Shown here piece after piece: positions 189-31,157 of a stretch of DNA of 64,000 nt. The notes under the pieces are model-generated. The model saw only the letters and a program-made list of their open reading frames with translations. It ran no database searches and was not told the origin of the DNA. Source of the stretch: Oscillospiraceae bacterium (GTDB taxonomy: Bacteria > Bacillota_I > Bacilli_A > RF39 > UBA660); assembly GCA_963632935.1 (NCBI GenBank), contig CAVGWA010000005.1:610-64609 (forward strand), written 5' to 3'. The position numbers were made by a program, and so were the translations under genes. Every line of letters begins with the position of its first letter. Position 1 is the first letter of the stretch.

Positions 189-3041
189 TCAATTTTCTAA
201 CTTAACTATTTCACTTGCAATCAATTGATATTCATTAAATCTTTTCTCTACCTTACACTTTATCTTTAAAAAATCAGCAATAAACAAATTATGCTTATAA
301 ACCTTAGGGAAAACAACAACTTCTATTTGTGAAAGTTCATCACTAACAGTCAAAAAAGCCATTTTTTCCTTATTTTTAGTATCTATCTCTCTTAACTTGT
401 CAACACTAACAATAACAGTAACATTCCTATCAAAATAATTAGCAATATTCTTTAAATCAATAATATCCTTATAAACTTTCTTATATTCACCGATTGGGTT
501 TACAGTTAAATAAAAACCAAACACATCAAGTTCCTTTTGCATCAGCTCTTTTTTAGAAAATTCTTTAAATAAATTCAACTGAGGTTTTAAACTATCATCA
601 ACATACCTACCAATTTCACTATAATTAATTATAATATCTAAATTATTAATTAATGTTTTCTTATTAGCAAATTCATCAAAAACACCCGCATATATTAAAC
701 TTTCAAATGAACTTCTACTAATATCACACCTACAAACAAAATCAAAAATATCATTAAATTTTCCTTTTTTTCTTTCGTCCAAAATCATATTTACATCAAA
801 TTTACTAACACCTTTTATAAAAGTCAAAGGAAAAATTATTCTATCATTTATCACCTTATAATCATTATCACTCAAATTTATATTAGGTTTTAAAACTTTA
901 ACTCCATTTAAACTACATTCATAAATATATTCTCTCATCTTCACTTCACTACCAGATGCGAAAGAAAGTAAATGTTTCATAAAAATAGCAGGAAAATGTG
1001 CCTTCAAATAAGCCATACGATATGAAATCATCCCATAAGCAATAGAATGAGAACGATTAAAACCATAATCAGCAAACTTAAAAATCATGTCATAAACCCT
1101 GCTAGCAGTATTTAAATCATAACCTTTTTTTAAACTACCAGCAATAAACTTATTTTTTTCATTTAAAAGAATACGTTCACTTTTTTTACTCATAGCTCTT
1201 CTTAATAAATCAGCCTCGGCCAAAGAATATCCAGCCATAACATTAGCAATTCTCATAATTTGTTCCTGATATACAATAATACCATATGTAGATTCCAATA
1301 TAACCTTTAAATCATCATGAAAATAATCAATCTTCTCTTCTCCATTTCTTCTTCTAATGTAAGAATCAATATTTTTCATAGGTCCTGGTCTAAATAAAGC
1401 TAAAGCAACCGCAACATCCTCAAAACTATCAGGTTTTAATCTTTTTAAAAAATTCTTCATTCCCTCAGATTCAAATTGGAAAATTCCAGCAGTTCTTCCA
1501 TCTTTAAAAACATTTAAAGTTAACTCATCATCAAGTACAATATCATCAAACTTCAAATTAATATCCTTTAAAATATCAGCTATAATAGTTAAATTTTTAA
1601 GACCCAAAAAATCCATCTTTAAAAAACCTATTTTTTCTAAATGATCTTTATCATATTCACTAACAAAAAAATCATTTACCTTATCAAGGGGAATATATTC
1701 ATCTAAATTATATCTTGACATAATAACCCCTGCCGCATGAAGCGAAGTATGTCGTTTTAAACCTTCAATTTTAGAAGCAATTTTATATAAACCTTGAAAC
1801 TCTTTATTAGCCTTCAAAAAATTTTTAACCTTAACGTTTTGATAATTTTGTTTTAAACTTAACCTAGAATCCAAAAGTTTACTTAACTCATCAGTCTTTT
1901 TTGCATCAACGCCAACTATCTTACTTACATCTCTTACAGCTTGCTTAGAAGCTAAAGTATTAAAAGTAACTATCAAAGCGACTTTTTTTTGACCATACTT
2001 TTCAATACAATATTTTATAACCTCTTCCCTTTTTGTGTCCTCAAAATCAACATCTATATCAGGCATAGTAATACGTTCAGGATTTAAAAATCTTTCAAAA
2101 AGTAAATTATATTTAATTGGATCAATAGTAGTAATATTTAAACAATAAGCAACTAAACAGCCAGCCGCACTACCCCTACCAGGACCAACCAATATATCAT
2201 GTTCTCTCGCATATTTAATATAATCCGCAACAATTAAAAAATAATCACAAAATCCCATCTTATTAATAACATCTAACTCTTTTTTTAACCTAATCGCATA
2301 CCTTTTAGAAACTTGATCACCAAAAATTCTCTTCATACCTAATATACATTGTCTTTTTAACTCCTGATAAGCATCTAAATTAGAATCATATACTGGAAGT
2401 AAATCATCTTCCTTTTTAATTTTTAAATTACAAATACTAACTAAATATTCATTATTTTTATCAAATCCTTTTAAAGGAAACAAACTTTTACCTTTAAAAT
2501 CATCCTCTATTTCATTAATCTTTATTCCATCACAAATTGCCTTTAAGTATTTTAAATTATTAATATCATCTTCATTTATACAAAGAATCTCACCCATATA
2601 AATAATATTTTTATTTTTAATTTTTAATCTTTCTTCTTCATTTTTATAACCGATAAAAATATACTCATAAATATTTTTAAGTTCTCTATAAATTTTTCCG
2701 CTTTCAAATGGAACTAAACACACAAGTCCAGATGAATATAAATTCAAATCATCAATTTTAATACTATCTTTTATAGTAACAAGTTTCATTAAATTTTTAT
2801 ATCCATCATAATTCATCGCATAAAATATCACGTTATAAGGAATAGAAAGTTCTAAACCAACAATAGGCTTAATGCCATTTAAAATGCATTTATTATAAAA
2901 TTCAAATGCACCATACATATTATAATCAGTAATAGTTAAAGCTTTGATATTATTTTTTAAAGCAACATCTATTAAATCATCAATTTTAATCATACTTTTT
3001 AAAAAAGAATTATCTGTTTTTATATTAATTGGTGCATTCAT
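189..3041 (-). CDS. dnaE: DNA polymerase III alpha subunit, DnaE type (short, about 950 aa)
   Basis: Polymerase core motifs GPGRGSAAGCLVAYCLNITTIDP, MPDIDVDFED, FRPGPM and IVYQEQIM, plus a C-terminal OB-fold-like region. The start is set at ATG 3041 (MNAPINIK) because AGGAGGT lies 6 nt upstream; the ORF track starts at 3062. Confidence 0.9.
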   Translation of the reverse strand: MNAPINIKTDNSFLKSMIKIDDLIDVALKNNIKALTITDYNMYGAFEFYNKCILNGIKPIVGLELSIPYNVIFYAMNYDGYKNLMKLVTIKDSIKIDDLNLYSSGLVCLVPFESGKIYRELKNIYEYIFIGYKNEEERLKIKNKNIIYMGEILCINEDDINNLKYLKAICDGIKINEIEDDFKGKSLFPLKGFDKNNEYLVSICNLKIKKEDDLLPVYDSNLDAYQELKRQCILGMKRIFGDQVSKRYAIRLKKELDVINKMGFCDYFLIVADYIKYAREHDILVGPGRGSAAGCLVAYCLNITTIDPIKYNLLFERFLNPERITMPDIDVDFEDTKREEVIKYCIEKYGQKKVALIVTFNTLASKQAVRDVSKIVGVDAKKTDELSKLLDSRLSLKQNYQNVKVKNFLKANKEFQGLYKIASKIEGLKRHTSLHAAGVIMSRYNLDEYIPLDKVNDFFVSEYDKDHLEKIGFLKMDFLGLKNLTIIADILKDINLKFDDIVLDDELTLNVFKDGRTAGIFQFESEGMKNFLKRLKPDSFEDVAVALALFRPGPMKNIDSYIRRRNGEEKIDYFHDDLKVILESTYGIIVYQEQIMRIANVMAGYSLAEADLLRRAMSKKSERILLNEKNKFIAGSLKKGYDLNTASRVYDMIFKFADYGFNRSHSIAYGMISYRMAYLKAHFPAIFMKHLLSFASGSEVKMREYIYECSLNGVKVLKPNINLSDNDYKVINDRIIFPLTFIKGVSKFDVNMILDERKKGKFNDIFDFVCRCDISRSSFESLIYAGVFDEFANKKTLINNLDIIINYSEIGRYVDDSLKPQLNLFKEFSKKELMQKELDVFGFYLTVNPIGEYKKVYKDIIDLKNIANYFDRNVTVIVSVDKLREIDTKNKEKMAFLTVSDELSQIEVVVFPKVYKHNLFIADFLKIKCKVEKRFNEYQLIASEIVKLEN

Positions 3042-3159
3042 AACCATACCTCCTAACTCCATTTTACTATAATTTAAATTTTTATAAAAGATATTATTTA
3101 CAACATAAATATGAATTTGCTATAATAAATACTAAAATTATTATGAAAGTTGGTTTAAT

Positions 3160-20402: not shown

Positions 20403-21806
20403 TTAATTATTTACTACATATGGATTAGAAATAGTTCCTTCACCTGATAAAGTAATATCAGATGATAAGAAGAAGACTGGAGATATAGAACTTACACTAG
20501 AAGGTAAACTCCAACCTGTTGACCAACTAATAGAATACAAATGGCCTGCATAATCAGTATAAGTTGGTGTAATTGTATAACTAGATAAATATGCTAACCA
20601 GTTTGTAGCCATACATTCATAACCTTCCTCATAAACAGAACTTTTACGTAAAGTACCACATAATTCTGTATTACTATTAGCCTTTACATAATCGCTTGCA
20701 TTTATTAATCCTATTTTGCCCTTCCACTGATAAGTGCTTTCTTGACTCAATGTATCAGATAAACTAGTATCTGCATAACTCATTGCACTTGTAATACCTA
20801 CATTAAACAAATGCGTTACTATTTTGCTTTGTATATTTGTGGGTAATGTATTTAACCATGTTTTATTTAAATATGTATTTATATATGCTTCTTTTTCCGG
20901 AAGATTATACAAATTTCCTCCTACAGTCCTTGGCATAGACGTTACATTATTTCCTGATGAATCTAACATTGTTGTCCTACTTCCCCATACATTACAGCCT
21001 GAATATTGAGCTTCTACTGAAGGAGAAGAAGGATTCCCATTCGAACCATAATAACAATAATCCGTAAATGAACTTGTATATCTTGTTCCAGTAACAGAAT
21101 TTGCATCCGTTACTCCTGATATACTTGTTGAATATCCTGGGTCAAATGGCATACTTCCAATGTTATCATTTTTAATTACTTTAAGTGTTCCATCTGATTC
21201 TATAGATATTATTCTATACATATCAGAACCTAATTTAATATAATTACCTGGAGTTACTCCTTTATACACATATCTATTTGATTCGGTACTATCAACATAT
21301 AACCCATCTCCCGATGTTACTACACCCTTAATCAAATCAGATGTTTCAGTAAAAATACCACATTCAGCTTCAGATACCTTAGTAAAAGTTAAAGTTTTAT
21401 CAGTATCTTTTTTTATGGCACATATTCCAACTGATTTATTATAAACAGCCATTGAAATTTTACCATCTTTATCAATTTTTATTGTTCCACTATCTGGATT
21501 TGTTCCAGAATATTTAAGTAAACTTTCAGTAGAAGTTTCTTCCTTTTTTGTTTGGGCGTTTGTATATGTATTTGTTTGATTTTGATTTTTAAATGTAATT
21601 TGTAATGGTAATTTTACTGTTTCTTCTAGTGATTGAGAACTATAATAGTTTTGAGAAGCTTTTAATAATAATGTTGTGCTATCTTCAAAACTCTTTGTTT
21701 TAGCAGTACTAATAACATTAAGAACAATTGGTGTTGTTATGGTTGCTATTATTCCAATGATTATAATGACAGCTAATAATTCAACTAATGTAAAACCTTT
21801 TTTCAT
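20403..21806 (-). CDS. Type IV pilin-like protein with a large (about 430 aa) C-terminal domain
   Basis: The start is set at ATG 21806 (MKKG|FTLVELLAVIIIIGIIATI), a prepilin class III signal with Glu at +5. This ATG overlaps the TAA of the upstream pilin gene (TAATG). Confidence 0.8.
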   Translation of the reverse strand: MKKGFTLVELLAVIIIIGIIATITTPIVLNVISTAKTKSFEDSTTLLLKASQNYYSSQSLEETVKLPLQITFKNQNQTNTYTNAQTKKEETSTESLLKYSGTNPDSGTIKIDKDGKISMAVYNKSVGICAIKKDTDKTLTFTKVSEAECGIFTETSDLIKGVVTSGDGLYVDSTESNRYVYKGVTPGNYIKLGSDMYRIISIESDGTLKVIKNDNIGSMPFDPGYSTSISGVTDANSVTGTRYTSSFTDYCYYGSNGNPSSPSVEAQYSGCNVWGSRTTMLDSSGNNVTSMPRTVGGNLYNLPEKEAYINTYLNKTWLNTLPTNIQSKIVTHLFNVGITSAMSYADTSLSDTLSQESTYQWKGKIGLINASDYVKANSNTELCGTLRKSSVYEEGYECMATNWLAYLSSYTITPTYTDYAGHLYSISWSTGWSLPSSVSSISPVFFLSSDITLSGEGTISNPYVVNN

Positions 21807-22210
21807 TAAGCACATTTTTCCTTATTATTTTTATTAATGTATTCATAAAAATATTTTTTATAATTGCTTGTTACCTTAACAACATCCTTTAACATTTCAC
21901 AATTTTTTTTGCTATTTATTGTATTGCTACTTATATAACCATTATCAACTAAAACTTGTCCTGTTATCTCACCACTACTACCATATTCTTTTATAACAGT
22001 ATCTGATTTTAATGCTTTAGGAAATTCATCAACATGATTATTTACATAATTTCTAGCAGCTGATATCATTAATTGTTTTGATGCTTCATCTGTTTCATTT
22101 TGCGAATTATTAAGCATGCTTAATACAGCAGGAAATGCTAATAAAGCTATAATAGCAAGTATAACAATCGTTCCTAATAGTTCAATTAAAGTAAATCCTT
22201 TATTTTTCAT
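21806..22210 (-). CDS. Type IV pilin-like protein (134 aa)
   Basis: MKNKG|FTLIELLGTIVILAIIALLAFP, a canonical prepilin cleavage/methylation motif followed by a pilin-sized globular part. Confidence 0.85.
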   Translation of the reverse strand: MKNKGFTLIELLGTIVILAIIALLAFPAVLSMLNNSQNETDEASKQLMISAARNYVNNHVDEFPKALKSDTVIKEYGSSGEITGQVLVDNGYISSNTINSKKNCEMLKDVVKVTSNYKKYFYEYINKNNKEKCA

Positions 22211-22254
22211 ATAAACACCTACTGTGATAATTATAGCATTTATGTTTTAAGATG

Positions 22255-23019
22255 TCAATTTACTTGATGAAAATCTAATCTTAATTTATCAGCAATAGTT
22301 ACCATAAATTCTGAATTAGTAGGTTTTGCTTTATCAATATCTACACTATATCCAAATATTTCTTCCATAAAATCTAAATTTCCTCTATTCCAGCTTACTT
22401 CTATTGCATGTCTTATTGCTCTTTCGACTCTTGATACTGTTGTATCAAATTTATCAGCTAATAATGGATATAATTCTTTAGTAATTCCTCCTATTATACC
22501 TGGATTTTCAAAAATAACATTTACAGCTTCCCTTATATATTGATATCCTTTTATATGTGAAGGTATTCCTAATTCATGTAGCATTTTAGTAATAGAAATT
22601 TGTAGATTACTTGTATAAAAATCAATGTTTTGATCACTATTTTCTTTTTCCATAATATCATATATTCTTTTTTCCAAAATAGATAAATCAAATGGTTTTA
22701 AAATATAATAACTTACTCCAAATTCTGATACTTCACGAATTACTTCAGCTGCATTATAACTTGTAGCTACTATAACTTTATTTTTTAAATTTCTTTTTTT
22801 CATTTCATTTAAAACATAAATTCCATCTTTGTTTGGCATAATTAAATCTAATATTATTAAGTCTATTTTATTTTGATATTTTTCTATTTGCTTTACTCCA
22901 TCTTCCCCATCATTTGCTTGATAAGCTATATTTATATTTTCATTTTCTTTAAAATATTCTTTTACCATTTCTATTAAATTTAAATTATCGTCTATCATTA
23001 AAATATTTATTTTTTTCAT
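22255..23019 (-). CDS. spo0A: Sporulation master regulator Spo0A
   Basis: Receiver domain (ILMIDDN..., DLIILDLIMPNKDG) plus a Spo0A-specific C-terminus (HIKGYQYIREAV...ITKELYPLLADKFDTTVSRVERAIRHAIEVSWNRGN). Confidence 0.95.
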   Translation of the reverse strand: MKKINILMIDDNLNLIEMVKEYFKENENINIAYQANDGEDGVKQIEKYQNKIDLIILDLIMPNKDGIYVLNEMKKRNLKNKVIVATSYNAAEVIREVSEFGVSYYILKPFDLSILEKRIYDIMEKENSDQNIDFYTSNLQISITKMLHELGIPSHIKGYQYIREAVNVIFENPGIIGGITKELYPLLADKFDTTVSRVERAIRHAIEVSWNRGNLDFMEEIFGYSVDIDKAKPTNSEFMVTIADKLRLDFHQVN

Positions 23020-23121: not shown

Positions 23122-23128
23122 TGTCGAA
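23122..23128 (+). promoter_or_regulatory. Consensus 0A box (TGTCGAA) upstream of spo0A
   Basis: Exact TGTCGAA at 23122-23128, about 103 nt upstream of the spo0A start. An extended -10 (TGTATAAT on the minus strand) lies at 23073-23080. Confidence 0.4.
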
Positions 23129-23160
23129 TAAAAAAAGGAGTTATTTTTGAACAACTTCCT
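23129..23160 (-). terminator. Possible terminator at the end of tpiA
   Basis: On the minus strand: AGGAAGTT (23160-23153) pairs with AACTCCT (23142-23136) with one bulge and a 10-nt loop, followed by tttttttatt. Confidence 0.4.
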
Positions 23161-23803
23161 CAATTTTTAATAAACTACTAATTTTAACACCAGAAATTCC
23201 TAATAAAAAACCAGAAATATTCTTTATTTCATTTAATTTTTCTATATTACTTTCATCTATGCTACCACCATATAAAATTTTAAAATTTGGATATTTATTT
23301 TTTATATAATCTATTATTTTTTCTATTTCTTCAGCAGTAGGAGTTATGCCTGTTCCAATAGCCCACACGGGTTCATAAGCAATTATTACATTTCCTTTTA
23401 TATTTTTTAAAACATTTAATTGTTTATCTAAATGGTTTTTTATATTTTCATTTTTTTCTTCACCAACGCACAATACGGGAATCAAATTATTTTCTAAAGC
23501 TATTTTTATTTTTTCTTCTATTTCATCACTTATATTTTTTCTAACTTCACTATGACCGATTAAAGCATAATGACATCCCATTTCTTGTGCGGAAAGTGCG
23601 GATATTTCTCCAGTGTATGCCCCTGATGAATGTGAAGAGATATTTTGAATACCACAGGTAAAACCATTTTCTATAAATGTCCCAATATGAATAGATGAAG
23701 GGAAAAAAATTATATTTTTTTCTTTTAATGCTTTTATATAATTTTGAATATCTTCTTTTTTGTTCAAATACATCTTTAAATTAACAAATATCATTTTTTC
23801 CAT
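23141..23803 (-). CDS. tpiA: Triose-phosphate isomerase (short form, 220 aa)
   Basis: FVNLKMY (Asn/Lys), IGHSEVR (His) and AYEPVWAIGTG (Glu) catalytic motifs, plus YGGSI. The start overlaps the upstream glycosyltransferase gene by 13 nt. Confidence 0.9.
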   Translation of the reverse strand: MEKMIFVNLKMYLNKKEDIQNYIKALKEKNIIFFPSSIHIGTFIENGFTCGIQNISSHSSGAYTGEISALSAQEMGCHYALIGHSEVRKNISDEIEEKIKIALENNLIPVLCVGEEKNENIKNHLDKQLNVLKNIKGNVIIAYEPVWAIGTGITPTAEEIEKIIDYIKNKYPNFKILYGGSIDESNIEKLNEIKNISGFLLGISGVKISSLLKIEEVVQK

Positions 23804-25017
23804 TTAATCACCTTTTTGAAAAAATTTTCTATTTTTTCTTTATAACTTAATTTTCTATTTTTTAAAGCTAAATTGTAAACATCTAATACTCTTTCTGCGA
23901 AGTATTTTGCAGAATGCATCTCAGCACTATTTCTAGCCCCTTTTTTTAAAGATAAAAATAATTTTTTATCATTCATAATTTTTATTATTTTATTAATGCT
24001 ATCTTCTTCATTTTCAAATAAATAACCATTTAAATCATCAATTACAGTACCTGCGAAGCTTTCATCATTTATACATAATGAAGGAAGTGATGATGCCATA
24101 GCTTCAATTATTGTTAAACCTTGTGTTTCACTTTGAGAGGCGGATATAAATATATCAGCTAGATTATAATATGAAGGTACATCATCCCAAGGAACTTTCC
24201 CTGTAAAAATAATATTGTTCATACATTTACTAGATAATTTTTCATATCTTTCTTTATCAGGACCATCTCCAACAATTAATAATTTAAAGTTTGGTTTTTG
24301 TTTTATAATTTTTTCAGTTATATTTATTAAAAATGGAATATTTTTTTCTTCAGCTATTCTACCTACAAATATGGCTACAAAATCTTTATTTTTTATATTG
24401 TATTTTTTTTGTAATATGTTTGTTTTTTTTATATCAACATTTTCTTCATAAAAACGTTCCAATTCTATTCCAGTTGGAATTATATGAATATTTCTTGAAA
24501 CATTATATTTTTTCTTAAACAAATCATAAGCTTTTTTAGTTGGAACAATAAGTTCTGTTATAGTTCTATCACAATAGAATTTGGTTAAATATTCAAGTAG
24601 TTTTTTACTTGATCTATCAAAATGACCTTTAGTTATATAATATACATAATCTTCATACATTGTATGATATGTATGAACTATTGGTATATTATATTGCTTT
24701 GCGAATAATCTAGCAAATGTACCAATAGCGAATTCTGTTTGAGAATGTATAACATCTAAATTCCAACTTCTTATTTTATTTATTGCTTTAATTGGATAAA
24801 TACTAGTTAATCTTGAATCATATATACCCGTTGGTATTCCTGGGATTTTTAAAACTTTTTCTTTTTCATCATATTCATAATGAAAATTTTCTAAATTAGC
24901 AGTTACAACATAAACTTCATGTCCTTTTTTTTCTAAGGCCTGTTTTAACATAAGTTCACTTGTTACAAGACCACTAATATATGGTGTATATGTTTCAGTA
25001 AAAATTCCAATTCTCAT
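23791..25017 (-). CDS. GT4-family glycosyltransferase (diacylglycerol glycosyltransferase-like; membrane glycolipid synthesis)
   Basis: MRIGIFTETYTPYISGLV N-terminus and a C-terminal GT1/GT4 motif (SQSETQGLTIIEAMASSLP). It resembles 1,2-diacylglycerol 3-glucosyltransferases. Confidence 0.8.
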   Translation of the reverse strand: MRIGIFTETYTPYISGLVTSELMLKQALEKKGHEVYVVTANLENFHYEYDEKEKVLKIPGIPTGIYDSRLTSIYPIKAINKIRSWNLDVIHSQTEFAIGTFARLFAKQYNIPIVHTYHTMYEDYVYYITKGHFDRSSKKLLEYLTKFYCDRTITELIVPTKKAYDLFKKKYNVSRNIHIIPTGIELERFYEENVDIKKTNILQKKYNIKNKDFVAIFVGRIAEEKNIPFLINITEKIIKQKPNFKLLIVGDGPDKERYEKLSSKCMNNIIFTGKVPWDDVPSYYNLADIFISASQSETQGLTIIEAMASSLPSLCINDESFAGTVIDDLNGYLFENEEDSINKIIKIMNDKKLFLSLKKGARNSAEMHSAKYFAERVLDVYNLALKNRKLSYKEKIENFFKKVIKWKK

Positions 25018-26018
25018 TATTTTGCCTCCTTATTAAAGGAAAGTGTTAAACCACCTATTAATATTCCAAAGTAGTACGTTACTATTCTCCAAGCAATCAT
25101 AACACTTGATAAAACTGGTTCGGTTATAAAGTTTTTAAAAAATGAAAGAAAACTATATTCTAATCCACCAGTACCTCCAGGAATTGGTGTCATTGAACCT
25201 ATCAGCATAACATATGCGGATGTAATTACTACTTTTATTGGATTTAAATATATTCCAAGACCCATTAATAATGCGAATGGAATTAAATATTGACCTATTA
25301 AAGCTATAAAGTTTAATAAAATTATTTTAAATACATTTACTTTATCTTTAAAAAGTACTATCGCACTTTCATGAAAATTACTAATAAATTCTTCTGAACT
25401 TTTTAATTTTTCTTCTTTATTTTTAATTATTTTCAATTTATATAAAATATTAATGGAACCATCAATTAATTTTTTATTCCATTTTCGACTAAATGCGACT
25501 AAAAATAGAAAAATAACTACTAATGTATTTATTGTAAAACCTAATACTACTAATTTTTTTAAAAGTGCACTAGCTGGAAATAAACGGAGCTGATAATTTG
25601 TAATAATAGCAATTAATCCAAGTAAAACAAGAGCAATTTGATATGCTATAAAATCTTGAATTATAACATTACTAGCCTGACCTAAAGATAGACCATCTTT
25701 TTTTAATTTATATATCTGCCATGGCTGACCACCAGATGAAAATGGAGTTATTGCATGAAAAAATTGTGTAGTTACCATAAGTAAAATACCTTGCTTAATT
25801 GTATATTTATCATATACTTTTTTTGTGCAGTAATATAAAACTAATCCTTTAAAAAACCAATATAATAAAATTAAAGAAAAAGCTATTAATAACCATTTAA
25901 TATCAAATGAAAATAAATATTTAACCTTTTCTTGAAAATTATCTTTTAAAGCTAAATAAAGTACCAATACGGTAAGAACTAATATTATTATAAAATTTCT
26001 TTTATTATTTTTCATCAA
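25017..26018 (-). CDS. Flippase-like / lysyl-phosphatidylglycerol-synthase TM-region family membrane protein (UPF0104)
   Basis: 333 aa with about 8 TM helices and a PIPGGTGGLE motif typical of this family. There is a 1-nt overlap with the downstream GT4 gene and a 14-nt overlap with pgk. Confidence 0.7.
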   Translation of the reverse strand: MMKNNKRNFIIILVLTVLVLYLALKDNFQEKVKYLFSFDIKWLLIAFSLILLYWFFKGLVLYYCTKKVYDKYTIKQGILLMVTTQFFHAITPFSSGGQPWQIYKLKKDGLSLGQASNVIIQDFIAYQIALVLLGLIAIITNYQLRLFPASALLKKLVVLGFTINTLVVIFLFLVAFSRKWNKKLIDGSINILYKLKIIKNKEEKLKSSEEFISNFHESAIVLFKDKVNVFKIILLNFIALIGQYLIPFALLMGLGIYLNPIKVVITSAYVMLIGSMTPIPGGTGGLEYSFLSFFKNFITEPVLSSVMIAWRIVTYYFGILIGGLTLSFNKEAK

Positions 26019-27189
26019 TTATATCCAAAGCTTTTAAAGCTTTCCCTTCTAAATATTCTAAACTAGCTCCCCCTCCAGTTGAAATATGACTTATTTTATC
26101 TTCTAAGTTAAATTTATTAACACTTCTTACTGAATCTCCACCACCTACTACAGTGTAAGCTTTAGTTTCTGATATGATTTGTAATATTTTTTTAGTACCG
26201 TTTTCAAAAGGTTTTAATTCAAAATATCCTAATGGACCGTTTAAAAATATTGTTTTTGAATCGTCTATATACTGTTTAAAAACTTCTACTGTTTTTGGAC
26301 CAATGTCTAATCCAATTTCATCTTCTTTTATTTCATTTATAAATCTTTCATTAGTATTTGCTTTATCAGATATTTCATTAGCTGTTATGATATCAATTGG
26401 TAAAATAATTTTATCTTCATATTTATCAAGTAAATCTTTACAATATGATATTTTATCTTTTTCTAAAAGAGATTGTCCAATATTAAACCCTGCAGCTTTT
26501 AAAAATGTAAAAGACATTCCACCAGCAATTAAAATATAATCGGCTTTATTTATTAGATTACTAATAACTCCAATTTTATCACTTACTTTAGAACCGCCTA
26601 AAATAATTATATATGGTTTTTTAGGTTTATCTATTAGTTTACTTAATTTTTTTATTTCATTTTCAACTAAAAAGCCAATTCCACTAGGAATATTCTTTGA
26701 AATTCCATAGTTTGATGCATGAGTTCTATGAATAGTTCCGAAAGCATCATTTATAAATATATCACCTAAACTTGCCCAATATTTACTTAATTTTTCATCA
26801 CAATTACTTTCTTTTTTATTAGGTAAATCTTCAAACCTTGTGTTTTCTATTAAAATGACATCTTTATTTTTCATTTTATTTATAGCTTTTTCTATTTGTT
26901 CTCCACGAGTGATATCTATAAATGTAACTTTTTTTCTTAATAGTTTACTAAGTCTTTCTGAAACTGGTTTTAGGGTATATTTTTCTTTATCATCTTCTGT
27001 TTTAATTCTTCCTAAATGTGAAAGTAAAATTACTTTAGCTCCCATTTTTCTTGCATATCTAATTGTTTTTAAACTAGCTTTTAATCTTTTTTCATCTTTT
27101 ATAATTCCATTTTCTATTGGAACATTGAAGTCACATCTAATTATAACTTTTTTATCTAATAAGTCATAATCTTTTATTGTTTTTTTCAT
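26005..27189 (-). CDS. pgk: Phosphoglycerate kinase
   Basis: RCDFNVP, LLSHLGR, FEDLPNKKE, GGSKVSDKI and STGGGASLE motifs. Confidence 0.96.
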   Translation of the reverse strand: MKKTIKDYDLLDKKVIIRCDFNVPIENGIIKDEKRLKASLKTIRYARKMGAKVILLSHLGRIKTEDDKEKYTLKPVSERLSKLLRKKVTFIDITRGEQIEKAINKMKNKDVILIENTRFEDLPNKKESNCDEKLSKYWASLGDIFINDAFGTIHRTHASNYGISKNIPSGIGFLVENEIKKLSKLIDKPKKPYIIILGGSKVSDKIGVISNLINKADYILIAGGMSFTFLKAAGFNIGQSLLEKDKISYCKDLLDKYEDKIILPIDIITANEISDKANTNERFINEIKEDEIGLDIGPKTVEVFKQYIDDSKTIFLNGPLGYFELKPFENGTKKILQIISETKAYTVVGGGDSVRSVNKFNLEDKISHISTGGGASLEYLEGKALKALDIIDEK

Positions 27190-27193
27190 ATGC

Positions 27194-27559
27194 CTAACCT
27201 CCGTATGTATATTCTAATGTACCATTATTGTTTTTTACTTTTACATAGCTAGCTTCTTCAATAACTTTTGATTTTGTTTTAGGGTTTTGTAAAGTTCCTT
27301 GAACATAACCTGCAGCAACTAAATCTTCCGATTGTATTGTTTCTTCTGAACCATTTGTTGTTTTTAAAATATAATATTCATCTGAATGCACTTCCACATA
27401 TACTTCAGCCGCTTTTTCAATGGTATGTTTATATTCTGCATAATTATTTTCCTGAAATTTTTTATTTGTATCTATAATTGATGGAACAGATACTAAGATT
27501 ATAATTCCAAGTATAGTTAAAATTGCGAGTAATTCAACTAATGTAAAACCTTTATTCAT
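27194..27559 (-). CDS. Type IV pilin-like protein (121 aa), first gene of the pgk operon
   Basis: MNKG|FTLVELLAILTILGIIILVSVPS. Its stop codon lies 4 nt before the pgk start. A terminator lies upstream (27617-27641) and a candidate promoter lies between them. Confidence 0.85.
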   Translation of the reverse strand: MNKGFTLVELLAILTILGIIILVSVPSIIDTNKKFQENNYAEYKHTIEKAAEVYVEVHSDEYYILKTTNGSEETIQSEDLVAAGYVQGTLQNPKTKSKVIEEASYVKVKNNNGTLEYTYGG

Positions 27560-27576
27560 ATTATCACCCTATATTC

Positions 27577-27605
27577 ATTCTATAACATTTTTATAATAAT
27601 AACAA
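27577..27605 (-). promoter_or_regulatory. Candidate sigma-A-type promoter for the pilin-pgk operon
   Basis: On the minus strand: TTGTTA (27600-27605), a 17-nt spacer, then TAGAAT (27577-27582). It lies about 18 nt upstream of the pilin start. Confidence 0.35.
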
Positions 27606-27616
27606 GTTGTTTACAG

Positions 27617-27641
27617 ATAAAAACGTATCAGCTTGATACGT
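27617..27641 (-). terminator. Rho-independent terminator after the PASTA-domain gene
   Basis: Stem acgtatca (27623-27630) / tgatacgt (27634-27641) with a 3-nt loop, followed on the minus strand by ttttat. The stop codon lies in the stem. Confidence 0.55.
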
Positions 27642-28446
27642 CATTTGAAGTAGAATCACCTATTTTATCTTCTTCACTTATTTTATCTTCTTCACTTATT
27701 TTATCTTCTTTGGTTGTTTTATTATTTTCTTCATTGTTACTTTCTTCTTCATTATTTTTTGACACAGTTATTATTAATGTATCTGTTAATTTTATTTTTT
27801 TACCTTTTTTTACGTTTTGATTTATTACTGTGTCATTATCCTCGTCAGATAAAGAGTATACTATTTTATATTTTATATTATTTTTATTTAAAATATTTAT
27901 TGCTTCATTTAAATTAAGGTTAATTAAATTAGGAACTAAAATACTTGAATCTAAAATACCAACAGTTAATTTAATAGTAGTATTTTCCATTACCTTTGTA
28001 CCACTTTTTTTACTTTGATTAATTACAATTTTAGCATTGCTCTGATCAGTAACTATTTTTTCAATCTTAGCACATTGTAATTTTTTATTTTTAAGTATCC
28101 CACAAGCCTTTTCATAACTATAGCCAGTAACAGATGGAACAATAATATTTTGATTTGTATAAATATAATAACCTAAAAATCCAGCAAGACCTAAAGCCGA
28201 TAAACTTAATAAAACTAAAAATAACATCATAAATTTTTGGAATAAATTCATTTTACCTTTTTCTTTATTTCTATCAACATATTTTACTTTAGTTTTTTTC
28301 TTAGTTTTCACCTTAGTTTTTCCTTTTTTATACTTAATTTTTTCAAAGTTTTCAGGTTTTTCATCTAATGGAAAACCACATTTTTTACAAAAGAAAGAAT
28401 CTTCATCATTTTTTTTATTGCATTTTGGACAGTACATTTTCATCAC
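27628..28446 (-). CDS. Zinc-ribbon / single-TM / double-PASTA-domain protein (no kinase or PBP domain)
   Basis: N-terminal CPKC-N10-CKKC ribbon, a Lys-rich linker, a TM helix, two PASTA-like repeats (VPSVTGYSYEKACGILKNKKL...; VPNLINLNLNEAINILNKNNI...) and an acidic repeat tail. Confidence 0.75.
   Translation of the reverse strand: MMKMYCPKCNKKNDEDSFFCKKCGFPLDEKPENFEKIKYKKGKTKVKTKKKTKVKYVDRNKEKGKMNLFQKFMMLFLVLLSLSALGLAGFLGYYIYTNQNIIVPSVTGYSYEKACGILKNKKLQCAKIEKIVTDQSNAKIVINQSKKSGTKVMENTTIKLTVGILDSSILVPNLINLNLNEAINILNKNNIKYKIVYSLSDEDNDTVINQNVKKGKKIKLTDTLIITVSKNNEEESNNEENNKTTKEDKISEEDKISEEDKIGDSTSNDVSS
27661..27712. repeat. 18-bp tandem repeat x2.8 inside the PASTA-gene 3' end (encodes the SEEDKI repeats)
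   Basis: tattttatcttcttcact is repeated at 27661, 27679 and (partially) 27697. The protein reads KEDKISEEDKISEEDKIG. Confidence 0.9.
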
Positions 28447-28480
28447 CTACATATATTATACATTTTTTTAAAATAAAAAC

Positions 28481-29494
28481 CTAGTTTACACTAGATTTAA
28501 ATAAATATTTAGCTGTTCTTACCATCTGCATTGAGTAACTCATTTCATTATCATACCAAGCAATAACTTTTACTAAATCACCATTTTCAGTTTCTAATAC
28601 ATCTGTAAGAAGTCCATCAACAACACCACCATGTGTATCACCAATAATATCGCTTGATACAATTGGATCTTCTGTGTAACCTAAGGTTTCATTTGAATTT
28701 TGTTTAAATGCATCATTGATTTGATCTTTAGTAACTTTACTATTTAGCTGTAGTGTTAAATCTATAACAGAACCTGTCGTTACTGGAACTCTTATAGCGT
28801 TTCCATCTAATTTACCATTTAAAGATGGAATTACTTTACCAATGGCACTTGCTGCACCGGTTGATGTCGGTATTATATTAGCAGCCGCTGCTCTTCCTCT
28901 TCTTGCTTGAATACCTTTTTTGTGGGCAACATCTAATACTGTCTGATCATTTGTATAAGCGTGCACTGTTGTCATGTAACCATTTTTTATTCCAAAGTCA
29001 TTGTTTAAAACATTTAAAACAGGAGCTAAACAATTAGTTGTACAAGATGCGGCACTAATTATTTGTTCAGTTCCATCTAAAATATTTTCATTAACTCCAT
29101 ACACTATTGTTTTTAAATCACCCTTGGCAGGAGCTGAAATAATTACTTTTTTAGCACCAGCGTTTATATGAGATATTGCTTTTTCTTTATCAGTAAATTT
29201 ACCAGTACATTCAAATACTGCATCTATATCTAACTGTTTCCATGGTAAGTTATTAGGGTCTATTTCAGAATATATTTTTATCTTTCTTCCTTTTACAATA
29301 ACACTATCTTCATCATAAGAAATTTCATTTGGTAAATATTTTCTATGTGATGTATCATATTTAAGTAAATACGCTAGTTGTTTAGGATCTGTTAGATCAT
29401 TTATGGCAACTATTTCAATATTCTCATCTTCTTCCATTATTCTAAATACTAATCTTCCTATACGTCCAAATCCGTTTATTGCTACTTTTATCAT
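28481..29494 (-). CDS. gap: Glyceraldehyde-3-phosphate dehydrogenase
   Basis: The start is set at ATG 29494 (MIKVAINGFGRIGR) with a GAGGAGG SD. Active site is SCTTNCLAP, and WYDNE is also present. Confidence 0.96.
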   Translation of the reverse strand: MIKVAINGFGRIGRLVFRIMEEDENIEIVAINDLTDPKQLAYLLKYDTSHRKYLPNEISYDEDSVIVKGRKIKIYSEIDPNNLPWKQLDIDAVFECTGKFTDKEKAISHINAGAKKVIISAPAKGDLKTIVYGVNENILDGTEQIISAASCTTNCLAPVLNVLNNDFGIKNGYMTTVHAYTNDQTVLDVAHKKGIQARRGRAAAANIIPTSTGAASAIGKVIPSLNGKLDGNAIRVPVTTGSVIDLTLQLNSKVTKDQINDAFKQNSNETLGYTEDPIVSSDIIGDTHGGVVDGLLTDVLETENGDLVKVIAWYDNEMSYSMQMVRTAKYLFKSSVN

Positions 29495-29495
29495 T

Positions 29496-31157
29496 TTATT
29501 CCTCCTCAAAAACACTTCCACCAATAAATTCTCTTAATATAGAATCTTTAGGTACAACTTCACTTGTTATTGGTAAAAAGTTTCTTAATAAATTTATTAA
29601 TCTAACTGCTTCAGGATACTGATCACTACTACTAATTATTCCATAAAGTAATGGTTCAGCATATATTCTAAGAACACTTAATTCATAACCTAATGATGAG
29701 TTTATCATAGCATCAGCATCATCTTGATATGGATAAATATTTAAACTGGCTTCTTTATCAACGTTTGGCCACATTGCTAATGTCGCTTCAGCATTTGTTC
29801 CTCTAAATAAATTATCTCTTACAATTCTTCTTAATTTTCTAACATCGGTTGTATGAACTCTATTGTGGTTATCTAATTTTAAATGTATTAAAGGACTCAT
29901 AAATATTTTAAATTTATTTTCTCTTGGTATTATTTGTGTTAACGCTTCATTTAATGTATGAATTCCTTCAATAATTAAAACTTCTCCTTTTTCTAACTTT
30001 AAAAAATCACCTTTAAATATTTTTTTACCTGATACAAAATCATAATATGGTAGTTCGGTTTTTTTACTATCCAAAAGATCTTTCAAATTTTCTTCAAATA
30101 ATTTTGTGTCGATTGAGTCCATACTAGAAAAATCTAAGTTACCGTTTTCATCTCTTTTTGCTTTATCACGATCAACAAAATAATTATCCAAAGATATTTT
30201 ATGCGATTTTATACCTTTTACACGTAGATATAGTCCTAATTTTTTTGCGGTTGTTGTTTTACCACTTGAAGAAGGACCTGCGAGTAAAATTAATTTTATT
30301 TTATCCTTGTTTTGAAAAATATCTTCAGCTATTTGTGATAATTGATCTTCATAGTGTGTTTCAAATAGTCTTACTACATCTGGATGTTTTCCTTTTGTAC
30401 ATATTTCATTTAATTGCGAAACAGTACTTATATTAATAATTCTCCCCCATTTTTGAAAATTTTTATATGTTTCAAATGTTAGTTTATGATGTATGTATTC
30501 ATCTACTTTATTTGGATTTTTTACTGAAGGATATGTTAGTATAAAACTATTTTCTTTTAAATATATTATTCCAAAATGTTCAAGTATTGATGTATCATAA
30601 ACTAATGGTCCATAAAAATAATCATATACTCCATCTAAAGAATATAATGTTATTGTTTTATTTGTCATATATTTTAAGCTATCTACTTTATCTAATTGAT
30701 TATGCGTTTTAAAATAATTTATTGCGGAAAAACGGTTTACGTTAATTTCAATGTATGGTATTTTTTTATTTACCATTTCATGCATTTTATTTTCAATCAA
30801 AGCAAGTATTTGTTTATTAATATCTTCACCTGTTATTTCACAATATATTCCATTTTCTAATGAATAGTTTATTAATATATCAGCATTTTGTCCTAGTATT
30901 TTATTTGTAGCAACAGTTACTAAAAATTCTAAACTTCTCGAATAAATTCTATTACCTATATTTGATGAAATGTCATAAAATTCTATATTTCCATCAGATA
31001 TTACTTCTTTATTCAAATCAACTAAAAATTGATTTAATTTAGCTCCGACTATTGGATACTTAAAATCATTTTTTACTTGTTTAGCTATTTCATAAAGTGT
31101 TTTTTTTCCTTTTATTTCAATGTTTTTATCTTTATATTTTAAGTTTATACTATTCAT
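29496..31157 (-). CDS. Uridine/nucleoside kinase-family P-loop protein with an N-terminal ThrRS-like (TGS-type) extension
   Basis: P-loop LLAGPSSSGKTTTAKKL in the C-terminal half. The N-terminal roughly 270 aa resembles the TGS/second-additional domains found on long uridine-kinase-like proteins of Firmicutes. Confidence 0.7.
   Translation of the reverse strand: MNSINLKYKDKNIEIKGKKTLYEIAKQVKNDFKYPIVGAKLNQFLVDLNKEVISDGNIEFYDISSNIGNRIYSRSLEFLVTVATNKILGQNADILINYSLENGIYCEITGEDINKQILALIENKMHEMVNKKIPYIEINVNRFSAINYFKTHNQLDKVDSLKYMTNKTITLYSLDGVYDYFYGPLVYDTSILEHFGIIYLKENSFILTYPSVKNPNKVDEYIHHKLTFETYKNFQKWGRIINISTVSQLNEICTKGKHPDVVRLFETHYEDQLSQIAEDIFQNKDKIKLILLAGPSSSGKTTTAKKLGLYLRVKGIKSHKISLDNYFVDRDKAKRDENGNLDFSSMDSIDTKLFEENLKDLLDSKKTELPYYDFVSGKKIFKGDFLKLEKGEVLIIEGIHTLNEALTQIIPRENKFKIFMSPLIHLKLDNHNRVHTTDVRKLRRIVRDNLFRGTNAEATLAMWPNVDKEASLNIYPYQDDADAMINSSLGYELSVLRIYAEPLLYGIISSSDQYPEAVRLINLLRNFLPITSEVVPKDSILREFIGGSVFEEE

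What the first reader, a model, noticed from the sequence alone, without database searches (positions are those of the whole stretch)
23141..29494. Glycolytic gap-pgk-tpi cluster split by a PASTA protein, a pilin and a membrane-glycolipid gene pair, with translational coupling
Gene order on the minus strand is: gap, zinc-ribbon/PASTA protein, terminator (27617-27641), candidate promoter (27577-27605), pilin (27194-27559), pgk, UPF0104 flippase-like protein, GT4 glycosyltransferase, tpiA.

The pilin stop is 4 nt from the pgk start. pgk and UPF0104 overlap by 14 nt, UPF0104 and GT4 by 1 nt, and GT4 and tpiA by 13 nt. No pgm or eno follows tpiA; spo0A does.

In most Firmicutes, gap-pgk-tpi-pgm-eno is one uninterrupted operon. 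Here a pilin gene leads a transcription unit that couples two glycolytic enzymes to envelope-lipid genes. Inference: surface and envelope functions are co-regulated with central carbon flux, or accessory genes have inserted into a highly expressed operon.
Basis: partly seen in the sequence, partly recalled or inferred. Interest (0 to 1): 0.6.

Follow-up and report, generated by a model that had tools for sequence, protein, structure and literature searches.

The report
Pilin-led glycolysis and glycolipid operon
In a small-genome, uncultured gut bacterium, two glycolysis genes (pgk, tpiA) share one tightly packed gene string with a pilus-subunit gene and two membrane-glycolipid genes; the layout is real and inherited by at least 80 related species, so it is an odd but stable gene order built from known parts, not a new system.

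Summary
In detail: every gene call, junction and hairpin is at the stated place.

**Not an artefact.** The layout is neither strain-specific nor an assembly error. All 80 best related loci, from uncultured gut Bacilli with 1-1.5 Mb genomes, carry pgk-UPF0104-GT4-(tpiA)-spo0A. The overlaps are the same, and most loci have the pilin just before pgk.

**Operon boundaries.**
- A promoter and Shine-Dalgarno footprint lies before the pilin and is at least 90% conserved in 57 loci.
- A hairpin with a T-tail lies upstream of the pilin in 29 of 33 loci.
- A second hairpin overlaps the tpiA stop in 65 of 67 loci.

Together they delimit a five-gene unit: pilin-pgk-UPF0104-GT4-tpiA. There are no transcript data.

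**Gene identities.** The GT4 is an Acholeplasma Mgs-like Glc-DAG synthase. The UPF0104-Mgs pair is an older module, also found without pgk or tpiA in other Bacilli families. Here it sits inserted between pgk and tpiA.

**Pilins.** They are scattered singly through housekeeping gene strings. A second one overlaps the stop of eno.

**Prior reports.** The scan has already reported this layout on other genomes.

**Verdict.** A new variant of known kinds, of modest interest.

The parts
29496..31157 (-). 553-aa protein with a C-terminal uridine-kinase/PRK domain and an unassigned N-terminal half. Its stop lies 1 nt before the gap ATG.
   Evidence: Pfam PRK and NCBIfam udk for residues 284-490. Junction read. 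Found upstream of gap in most relatives.
28481..29494 (-). gap (GAPDH). The true start is ATG 29494, not the TTG at 29524.
   Evidence: Pfam Gp_dh_N/C. The N-terminus MIKVAINGFGRIG is preceded by a GAGGAGG SD.
28469..28498 (-). Hairpin (-7.8 kcal/mol) overlapping the gap stop, followed by a T-rich tail. Terminator-like.
   Evidence: A similar element occurs in 10 of 17 gap>PASTA intergenic regions.
27628..28437 (-). Zn-ribbon, TM segment and 2 PASTA domains, with no kinase domain and a C-terminal EEDKIS repeat. Has its own extended -10 (TGTATAAT, 28462-28455) and SD. Probable start is ATG 28437.
   Evidence: Pfam PASTA x2 and Zn_Ribbon_1. Matches only the PASTA part of PknB. Sequence read. Present in only some relatives.
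27612..27642 (-). Hairpin (9 bp, -8.6 kcal/mol) with the PASTA stop codon in its loop, followed by a T-run. Terminator-like.
   Evidence: An equivalent element lies upstream of the pilin in 29 of 33 loci.
27577..27605 (-). Promoter: -35 TTGTTA, 17 nt, -10 TAGAAT (TAAAAT in relatives). A GGGTGAT SD follows at 27569-27563.
   Evidence: Scan hit. CTTG, GTATAAAAT and TAGGTGAT are at least 90% conserved in 57 loci, with unconserved sequence upstream.
27194..27559 (-). Type IV pilin-like gene (121 aa): MNKG|FTLVE class III signal, then a hydrophobic helix. First cistron of the unit.
   Evidence: Pfam N_methyl. Weak ComGC/GspG matches. AF2 model with pLDDT 87.6, a long N-helix and a small beta domain. 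Orthologues before pgk form one clade.
26005..27189 (-). pgk (phosphoglycerate kinase). The only copy found in the genome.
   Evidence: Pfam PGK, 484 bits. One match in G000.
25017..26015 (-). UPF0104 / LPG_synthase_TM flippase-like polytopic membrane protein. The only one in the genome.
   Evidence: Pfam PF03706, 139.6 bits, and TIGR00374, 94 bits, both over cut-off. Single copy. Start read.
23791..25017 (-). GT4 glycosyltransferase, Mgs-like (alpha-monoglucosyl-diacylglycerol synthase type).
   Evidence: NF049988 full-length match, 287 bits, E 3e-85; next best family 95 bits. The only such gene in the genome.
23141..23803 (-). tpiA, a compact 220-aa triosephosphate isomerase with its catalytic motifs kept.
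   Evidence: Pfam TIM, 185.7 bits. NLK, GHSE, YEPVWAIGTG and YGGS are present, and about 28 residues are lost in small deletions relative to 248-aa TIMs. Single copy.
23127..23161 (-). Hairpin (27 nt, -7.9 kcal/mol) containing the tpiA stop codon, followed by TTTTTATT. Terminator of the unit.
   Evidence: Present at the same place in 65 of 67 loci, with arm changes that keep pairing.
22255..23019 (-). spo0A, a separate unit with its own TGTATAAT extended -10 and SD in the 121-nt spacer.
   Evidence: Pfam Spo0A_C and Response_reg. Spacer read. The tpi>spo0A gap has a median of 104 nt and never overlaps.
20403..22258 (-). Perfect sigma-70 consensus promoter (22258-22230), then a second pilin (pil2, 21806-22210) and a 470-aa pilin-like protein (20403-21815) overlapping it.
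   Evidence: Promoter scores 12 of 12 with a TG. N_methyl / IV_pilin_GFxxxE matches. The spo0A-linked pilins form one clade.

Best explanation
The region holds a vertically inherited five-gene operon: pilin-pgk-UPF0104-mgs(GT4)-tpiA. It is flanked by a conserved sigma-A-type promoter and a conserved intrinsic terminator.

Proposed origin (inferred). The ancestral pgk-tpiA pair kept its promoter. A pre-existing two-gene glycolipid module was inserted between pgk and tpiA. That module is a UPF0104 flippase-like membrane protein plus an Acholeplasma Mgs-type Glc-DAG synthase. In one sub-clade a type IV pilin gene was placed between the promoter and pgk.

Proposed mechanism (inferred). One strong housekeeping promoter makes a single mRNA. 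The overlapping or abutting stop/start junctions couple translation of pgk, UPF0104, mgs and tpiA. The GT4 makes monoglucosyl-diacylglycerol on the inner leaflet. The UPF0104 protein moves it, or a derivative, to the outer leaflet, where an LtaS-like enzyme can use it as an anchor. The pilin is processed by the genome's prepilin peptidase and assembled by its PilB/PilC-like machinery.

The co-expression is most simply read as accessory genes riding on an essential, constitutively expressed operon in a regulator-poor 1.1 Mb genome. It need not be a dedicated metabolic control circuit.

Shown: gene identities, junctions, and conservation of order, promoter and terminators. Inferred: co-transcription, lipid product, flippase role, pilus assembly.
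For: - Gene families.
- Order is kept in 21 species of the genus, in two other families, and in 80 of 80 best loci of 490.
- Junction distances over 81 loci: pgk>UPF0104 median -11 nt; UPF0104>GT4 median -1 nt; GT4>tpi overlapping in 71 of 71; pilin>pgk median 13 nt; tpi>spo0A median 104 nt.
- Hairpin with T-tail: after tpiA in 65 of 67 loci and before the pilin promoter in 29 of 33, against 24 of 240 coding windows.
- Promoter and SD footprint at least 90% conserved in 57 loci.
- Pilin-less relatives have a similar TTGTA-N17-TAAAAT promoter directly before pgk.
- UPF0104 lies immediately upstream of an Mgs-like GT4 in many other Bacilli families. These include the two genomes whose GT4 scores 779-791 bits on the Mgs model. 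None of them has pgk or tpi nearby.
- mgs-like and UPF0104 are each single-copy in this genome.
- An LtaS-like gene is present.
- A prepilin peptidase, a PilC-like gene and a PilB-like gene are present.
- The pgk-linked pilins form one clade, SH-aLRT 95.
- Published precedent for a GT4 plus a UPF0104 predicted flippase in one lipid operon: gpgSDF and hexSDF (PMC12713373).
Against:
- An internal promoter inside the pilin or pgk coding sequence cannot be excluded. Promoter-like hexamers are everywhere in 24% GC DNA.
- The hairpins are AT-rich and weak (about -8 kcal/mol), so read-through from gap/PASTA into the pilin, and from tpiA into spo0A, is possible.
- The GT4 scores below the curated Mgs cut-off (287 against 400 bits), so its sugar and acceptor are not established.
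- No UPF0104 protein outside MprF has a demonstrated flippase activity. GpgF is only predicted.
- The direction of events (pilin gained or lost) is not rooted.
Confidence: 0.7

Rival explanations
1. Adaptive co-regulation. The glycolipid genes sit between pgk and tpiA because membrane-lipid synthesis must track lower glycolysis. tpiA supplies DHAP for glycerol-3-phosphate and diacylglycerol, and the pilin is tied to growth rate. On this view selection maintains the order for stoichiometric co-expression.
For: The order and the overlapping junctions persist across species whose pgk is only 54-58% identical. This holds although the region between gap and the pilin is a hot spot for other inserts. 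A second glycolytic gene, eno, is also overlapped by a pilin gene in 14 of 22 genus genomes. The genome lacks a CggR-type regulator, so operon membership may be the main control available.
Against: Variants are tolerated: pgk-GT4-tpi without UPF0104 in G127, GT4-spo0A without tpiA in 8 loci, and the pilin after pgk in G030. The UPF0104-mgs pair works without glycolytic neighbours in other families. Tight packing is common genome-wide. No regulatory site was found.
Confidence: 0.2
2. Passive packing with independent expression. The genes are merely squeezed together by genome reduction, and each is driven by its own internal promoter, so the string is not one transcription unit.
For: 41% of same-strand neighbours in this genome lie within 15 nt. 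Promoter-like hexamers occur throughout the AT-rich coding sequence. Reduced genomes related to Mollicutes are known (general knowledge) to have many internal start sites.
Against: Only the site before the pilin shows a phylogenetic footprint. Hairpin/T-tail elements occur at the ends of the string and are about nine times rarer in coding windows. Three of the four junctions leave no room for a promoter outside coding sequence.
Confidence: 0.1
3. Strain-specific rearrangement or mis-assembly of a metagenome bin.
For: The genome is a 43-contig draft.
Against: The same order occurs in closed single-contig genomes (G009, G012) and in 80 independent assemblies from different hosts and studies.
Confidence: 0.01

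Closest known systems
Bacillus subtilis central glycolytic operon cggR-gapA-pgk-tpiA-pgm-eno (general knowledge)
   Same: gap, pgk and tpiA lie on one strand in the same order. pgk and tpiA appear to share one promoter.
   Different: - No CggR-like gene was found.
- gap is coupled to a udk-like gene and has its own hairpin.
- pgk and tpiA are separated by two lipid genes and preceded by a pilin.
- eno and a gpmA-like mutase lie on another contig.
- spo0A follows tpiA.
Acholeplasma laidlawii alpha-monoglucosyl-diacylglycerol synthase (alMGS; NCBIfam NF049988)
   Same: Full-length GT4 match (residues 1-389 to model positions 1-392 of 398, E 3e-85), far above any other GT4 family. In the class genomes whose GT4 passes the Mgs cut-off, a UPF0104 gene sits immediately upstream, as it does here.
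   Different: The score of 287 bits is below the curated cut-off of 400. Identity to the true-Mgs genomes is about 38%. The product was not assayed. In those genomes the pair is not flanked by pgk or tpiA.
gpgSDF of Pseudomonas aeruginosa and hexSDF of Clostridioides difficile (PMC12713373)
   Same: A cytoplasmic GT4 lipid glycosyltransferase is encoded in one operon with a UPF0104/COG0392 predicted flippase. The UPF0104 protein here gives a weak match to the GpgF model NF053789 (66.8 bits).
   Different: There is no deacetylase gene here. The GT4 resembles Mgs, not GpgS (81 bits on NF053787). Gene order is flippase first. Flippase activity is unproven in those systems too.
Listeria monocytogenes lafA-lafB-lafC LTA-anchor operon (PMC2764115)
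   Same: A Glc-DAG-forming GT4 (LafA) was found through similarity to an alMGS-like streptococcal protein. It shares an operon with an 8-TM membrane protein of accessory, unknown function (LafC) acting downstream of glycolipid synthesis. An LtaS-like gene is present here too.
   Different: No LafB-type second transferase lies in the string, and the membrane gene is upstream, not last. Whether LafC belongs to UPF0104 was not tested here; the lead comes from an earlier scan note.
Type IV pilins / Com pseudopilins of Firmicutes (ComGC; C. difficile PilA1 and PilJ)
   Same: Class III signal with G-1, F+1 and E+5; a hydrophobic N-terminal helix; a small globular head. A prepilin peptidase, a platform protein and an ATPase are encoded in the genome.
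   Different: The pilin genes are not clustered with the machinery. They are scattered singly through housekeeping gene strings (pgk, eno, xseB, trmD region, spoVA region). No family model reaches its cut-off, and fold matches are weak.

Membership tests
Firmicute central glycolytic (cggR-gapA) operon | Contiguous gapA-pgk-tpiA-pgm-eno | tested here: not met
   A PASTA gene and a pilin separate gap from pgk, and UPF0104 plus GT4 separate pgk from tpiA. eno is on contig C8.
Firmicute central glycolytic (cggR-gapA) operon | SorC-type repressor CggR encoded upstream of gapA | tested here: not met
   The upstream gene is a udk-like 553-aa protein. PF04198 has no match in the 94%-complete genome.
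Type IV pilin (class III signal peptide proteins) | Short leader ending in G, then F/M at +1 and E at +5, followed by about 20 hydrophobic residues | tested here: met
   MNKG|FTLVELLAILTILGIIILV. Pfam N_methyl at 24.3 bits, above its 21.2 cut-off. F5, T6, L7 and E9 are invariant in 36 orthologues.
Type IV pilin (class III signal peptide proteins) | Prepilin peptidase, assembly ATPase and platform protein in the same genome | tested here: met
   Peptidase_A24 on C4. An adjacent 577-aa protein with two T2SSF domains. A T2SSE ATPase of 446 aa at 420 bits on C13.
Type IV pilin (class III signal peptide proteins) | Pilin fold: long alpha-1 helix packed on a beta-sheet head | tested here: inconclusive
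   The AF2 model (pLDDT 87.6) has helix 7-57 plus three strands. The top Foldseek hit is gonococcal pilin 1ay2, but at E 0.83. The VIA top hits are PilJ, GspI and type IVb pilins at only Z 4.4-4.9.
alpha-Monoglucosyl-diacylglycerol synthase Mgs (NF049988) | Score above the curated equivalog cut-off (400 bits) | tested here: not met
   287 bits, full length, E 3e-85. It is Mgs-like and not shown to be an equivalog.
alpha-Monoglucosyl-diacylglycerol synthase Mgs (NF049988) | GT4 (GT-B) two-domain architecture | tested here: met
   Glyco_transf_4 at residues 15-188 and Glycos_transf_1 at 202-363, both over cut-off.
alpha-Monoglucosyl-diacylglycerol synthase Mgs (NF049988) | Transfers glucose from UDP-Glc to diacylglycerol | not testable with these tools
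   Needs lipidomics or an enzyme assay.
UPF0104 / LPG_synthase_TM flippase-like family (PF03706, TIGR00374) | Full-length match over the curated cut-offs | tested here: met
   PF03706 at 139.6 bits (cut-off 33.4), covering residues 12-322. TIGR00374 at 94.2 bits (cut-off 43.2).
UPF0104 / LPG_synthase_TM flippase-like family (PF03706, TIGR00374) | Lipid translocation activity | not testable with these tools
   Only inferred, from the MprF flippase domain and from the conserved pairing with lipid GT4 genes.
Triosephosphate isomerase | TIM family match with catalytic Lys, His and Glu and the phosphate-binding loops | tested here: met
   PF00121 at 185.7 bits. NLK, GHSE, YEPVWAIGTG and YGGS are aligned to solved TIMs. 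The NCBIfam equivalog cut-offs are not reached (145.9 against 298 bits) because the protein is short and divergent.
PASTA Ser/Thr kinases (PknB/Stk1) | N-terminal Hanks-type kinase domain | tested here: not met
   Only model positions 307-509 (TM plus PASTA) match. The N-terminus is a zinc ribbon.

The most novel reading that the evidence does not exclude
In this clade of reduced gut Bacilli the type IV pilin repertoire has been taken apart. Each pilin gene is fixed as an orthologous, position-locked cistron inside a different essential or housekeeping gene string: before pgk, overlapping the stop of eno, and after spo0A. In this genome, pilins also lie next to xseB, trmD/rimM and spoVA. If so, pilus-subunit supply is hard-wired to growth-linked expression instead of a dedicated pilus regulon.

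In parallel, the class-wide UPF0104-Mgs pairing may identify UPF0104 as the missing glycolipid (Glc-DAG / LTA-anchor) translocase of Acholeplasma-type and related Bacilli.
Probability: 0.25. Interest if true: 0.55.

Novelty: new variant of a known kind. Interest (0 to 1): 0.36.

Why it matters
It shows how an essential, near-universal gene pair (pgk-tpiA) can absorb unrelated genes without losing its promoter or terminator. The resulting mosaic can stay frozen through genus- to family-level divergence in regulator-poor, reduced genomes.

It gives two testable leads:
- UPF0104 proteins as partners of Mgs-type glycolipid synthases. The pairing extends to Acholeplasma-like genomes, where Mgs is a classic model enzyme.
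- Pilin genes embedded one by one in housekeeping operons of uncultured gut Bacilli, which bears on how these organisms attach or take up DNA.

None of the parts is new, and the scan has already seen this layout in relatives.

Tried and rejected
- **Promoter scan alone.** It is uninformative: 61 sites found against 73.9 expected in shuffles. Only conservation rescued the site before the pilin.
- **Built-in terminator scan.** It missed the hairpins after gap and tpiA because they have fewer than 3 G-C pairs. A custom RNAfold scan with a coding-region control was used instead.
- **Fold search of the pilin model.** Foldseek against pdb gave no hit at E <= 0.001. VIA-align wide gave Z <= 4.9. Pilins and pseudopilins top both lists but do not stand clear of coiled-coil noise.
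- **Fusion idea.** Mgs-like open frames of 660-675 aa in other families looked like possible UPF0104-GT4 fusions. This was rejected: in L187 UPF0104 is in another frame upstream, so the extra length is a C-terminal extension of unknown nature.
- **Short TIM as a degenerate or archaeal-type enzyme.** Rejected. All catalytic motifs are kept and the best matches are bacterial/eukaryotic-type TIMs.
- **Literature.** A search for a pilin-pgk operon found nothing relevant.
- **Listeria LafC.** Whether LafC is a UPF0104 member could not be checked. No sequence was on hand, and the papers do not name the family.
- **Careful IQ-TREE search.** It did not finish in time, so the quick tree was used.

Full report
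**1. What is there**

The window comes from a 1.13 Mb, 43-contig genome that is 94% complete and about 27% GC. ORF listing and Pfam/NCBIfam scans confirm the following minus-strand order:
- a 553-aa udk-like protein (29496-31157)
- gap
- a Zn-ribbon/TM/2xPASTA protein with no kinase domain
- a 121-aa N_methyl pilin (27194-27559)
- pgk (26005-27189)
- a PF03706/TIGR00374 "flippase-like" UPF0104 membrane protein
- a GT4 glycosyltransferase (23791-25017)
- a 220-aa TIM (23141-23803)
- spo0A
- a second pilin (pil2)
- a 470-aa pilin-like protein

**2. Junctions**

- The pilin stop is 4 nt before the pgk ATG. The pgk SD (GGAGG) lies in the last pilin codons.
- pgk and UPF0104 overlap by 11 nt (ATG 26015) or 14 nt (TTG 26018).
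- UPF0104 and GT4 share one base (TAATG), with an AAGGAGG SD.
- GT4 and tpiA overlap by 13 nt. The GGTGAT SD spacing favours the first ATG.
The real gap start is 29494 (MIKVAINGFGRIG), 1 nt after the udk-like stop, so gap is coupled to that gene. The PASTA gene has its own extended -10 (TGTATAAT) and SD.
- A crude genome-wide gene call puts 22% of same-strand neighbours in overlap and 41% within 15 nt. Tightness alone is therefore ordinary here.

**3. Not an artefact, and not strain-specific**

- pgk was located in 38 of 41 relatives. The regions were fetched and mapped with the window's proteins.
- All 21 genus members with pgk, at 58-80% pgk identity, show udk-like-gap-(PASTA)-pilin-pgk-UPF0104-GT4-tpi-spo0A-pil2. 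These include two closed genomes.
- A genome from another family (G030) has gap-pgk-pilin-GT-UPF0104-GT4-tpi-spo0A. A same-order genome (G025) has pgk-UPF0104-GT4-tpi. Other class members have plain gap-pgk-tpi.
- A scan of one genome per species with a UPF0104 alignment found 490 related loci. All 80 best, labelled uncultured Bacilli/"Tenericutes" (one as Candidatus Coprosoma sp.), carry pgk-UPF0104-GT4-(tpi)-spo0A. Eight of them lack tpi between GT4 and spo0A.
- These are the reduced, partly sporulating gut Bacilli orders discussed in PMC10868615.

**4. Boundaries of the unit**

Distances over 81 loci:

| Junction | Median (nt) | Note |
|---|---|---|
| pgk > UPF0104 | -11 | |
| UPF0104 > GT4 | -1 | 80 of 81 within 10 nt |
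| GT4 > tpi | | overlaps in 71 of 71 |
| pilin > pgk | 13 | never overlapping, range 1-190 |
| tpi > spo0A | 104 | |
| gap or PASTA > pilin | 112-127 | |

- An RNAfold scan looked for a single hairpin of dG <= -6 followed by a T-rich tail. It is positive right after tpiA in 65 of 67 loci, upstream of the pilin in 29 of 33, and after gap in 10 of 17. Coding windows of 130 nt are positive in 24 of 240.
- In the window the tpiA hairpin is at 23161-23135 with the stop codon inside it. The arms vary between species while pairing is kept.
- The 110 nt before the pilin ATG show an obvious footprint. In a MAFFT alignment of 57 loci, CTTG (-35), GTATAAAAT (-10) and TAGGTGAT (SD) are each at least 90% conserved, and nothing further upstream is.
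- Distant relatives without the pilin carry a very similar TTGTA-N17-TAAAAT element directly before pgk.
- The best reading is a promoter > pilin-pgk-UPF0104-GT4-tpiA > terminator operon. gap (with the udk-like gene), the PASTA gene and spo0A are neighbouring units. Co-transcription itself remains inferred, because no RNA data could be reached.

**5. The lipid pair**

- The GT4 matches the alpha-monoglucosyl-diacylglycerol synthase model NF049988 over its full length (287 bits, E 3e-85). The next family scores 95 bits, but the match is below the curated 400-bit cut-off.
- It is the only such gene in the genome, and UPF0104 is the only PF03706 gene.
- A class-wide search with the Mgs model followed by tblastn shows a UPF0104 gene immediately upstream of the Mgs-like GT4 in many other families. 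These include the two genomes scoring 779-791 bits (Acholeplasma-type Mgs). None has pgk or tpi next to the pair.
- The pair is therefore an old two-gene module that in this lineage sits between pgk and tpiA.
- One same-family genome (G127) has pgk-GT4-tpi without UPF0104.
- An LtaS-like gene is present (278 bits, below its cut-off). A role in making and presenting a glycolipid anchor is therefore plausible.
- Published parallels are gpgSDF and hexSDF, which combine a GT4, a deacetylase and a UPF0104 predicted flippase (PMC12713373). Another is Listeria lafA-lafB-lafC, where LafC is an 8-TM protein of unknown function acting after glycolipid synthesis (PMC2764115). Whether LafC is a UPF0104 protein was not tested.

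**6. The pilin**

- It has a textbook class III signal (MNKG|FTLVE), and F5, T6, L7 and E9 are invariant in 36 orthologues.
- The AF2 model (pLDDT 87.6) has a 50-residue N-helix and a small beta head. Fold matches to pilins and pseudopilins rank first but are weak.
- The genome encodes a prepilin peptidase next to a two-domain PilC-like protein, a PilB-like ATPase, and two Tad-like loci.
- A motif search finds at least 14 prepilin genes, plus pil2.
- The small pilins lie singly and co-directionally in housekeeping strings:
  - one overlaps the eno stop by 11 nt and is followed by another
  - one overlaps the end of xseB
  - one lies between a sigma factor and spoVAC-D-E
  - one lies before a SpoU methylase-rimM-trmD string
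  - one lies before a GtrA gene near pyk
- eno > pilin is seen in 14 of 22 genus genomes.
- In a quick ML tree the pgk-linked pilins (59 sequences), the spo0A-linked pilins (39) and the eno-linked pilins (13 of 14) each form one group, with SH-aLRT 95, 99 and 98. Each placement therefore looks like a single, inherited event.

**7. TIM**

The 220-aa TIM keeps NLK, GHSE, YEPVWAIGTG and YGGS. Relative to 248-aa TIMs it has lost about 28 residues in several small deletions. It is the only TIM in the genome. It is compact and fast-evolving, at 38-62% identity among relatives, but not degenerate.

**8. Verdict**

- All parts belong to known families. The new element is the stable mosaic order and the dispersal of pilin genes.
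- The scan has already reported the same layout on other genomes, and two follow-ups reached the same "lineage trait" conclusion.
  - the promoter and terminator footprints
  - the class-wide UPF0104-Mgs module, including Acholeplasma-type genomes
  - the eno-pilin link
  - the position-specific pilin clades
- Interest is modest.

Noticed in passing
G000 contig C8; L119:1090-3062 (eno 1090-2325, pilins 2315-2680 and about 2697-3062): A second glycolysis-pilin link. The ATG of a 121-aa pilin overlaps the last codons of eno by 11 nt, and a second pilin follows. A gpmA-like His_Phos_1 gene lies about 2.5 kb upstream. eno>pilin is found in 14 of 22 genomes of the genus, and these pilins form one clade.
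   Followed up: partly
G000 contigs C2 (74788-75282), C11 (6053-7414), C24 (2711-4141), C30 (4388-5368): Four pilin-like paralogues of 164-476 aa share an almost identical 45-residue N-terminus (MRENYKGFTLVELLAIIV...). Their lengths differ, so the rest of the protein must differ. They could be variable tip or adhesin pilins, or a variation system.
   Followed up: no
window 22230-22258 (-): A perfect sigma-70 consensus (TTGACA-17-TATAAT with an upstream TG) overlaps the end of spo0A. It sits directly before pil2 and the 470-aa pilin-like gene.
   Followed up: no
window 23141-23803 (-): The TIM is only 220 aa (220-231 aa in the genus) and diverges faster than pgk or the GT4. It falls below all NCBIfam TIM equivalog cut-offs although its catalytic motifs are intact.
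   Followed up: partly
window 29496-31157 (-): A 553-aa protein has a uridine-kinase-like C-terminal half and an N-terminal 280 residues with no family match. It is translationally coupled to gap and conserved upstream of gap in most relatives, in the place where Bacillus has cggR.
   Followed up: no
window 27628-28446 (-): A kinase-less Zn-ribbon/TM/2xPASTA protein ends in an acidic EEDKIS repeat. It is present between gap and the pilin in only some relatives. Other relatives carry other inserts there, with gaps up to 6 kb, so this spacer is an insertion hot spot.
   Followed up: partly
L187, L194, L195, L197, L198 (other Bacilli families): The Mgs-like GT4 lies in an open frame of 660-675 aa. 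That is a C-terminal extension of about 270 aa of unknown nature. It is not a fusion with UPF0104.
   Followed up: partly
L179 (G127), and L090, L099, L101, L103, L104, L108, L113, L114: Variants of the string exist: pgk-GT4-tpi without UPF0104 in one same-family genus, and GT4-spo0A with no tpiA between them in eight loci. Where tpiA is in those genomes was not looked up.
   Followed up: no
G000 contigs C15 (L164:4539-8806) and C25 (L161:6674-11703): Two Tad/Flp-like loci (CpaF-like ATPase, TadB/C-like proteins, small TadE/Flp-like proteins) occur in addition to the PilB/PilC/PilD set. That is three pilus-type systems in a 1.13 Mb genome.
   Followed up: no
whole genome G000: No SorC/CggR-type sugar-binding regulator (PF04198) was found in the 94%-complete genome.
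   Followed up: partly
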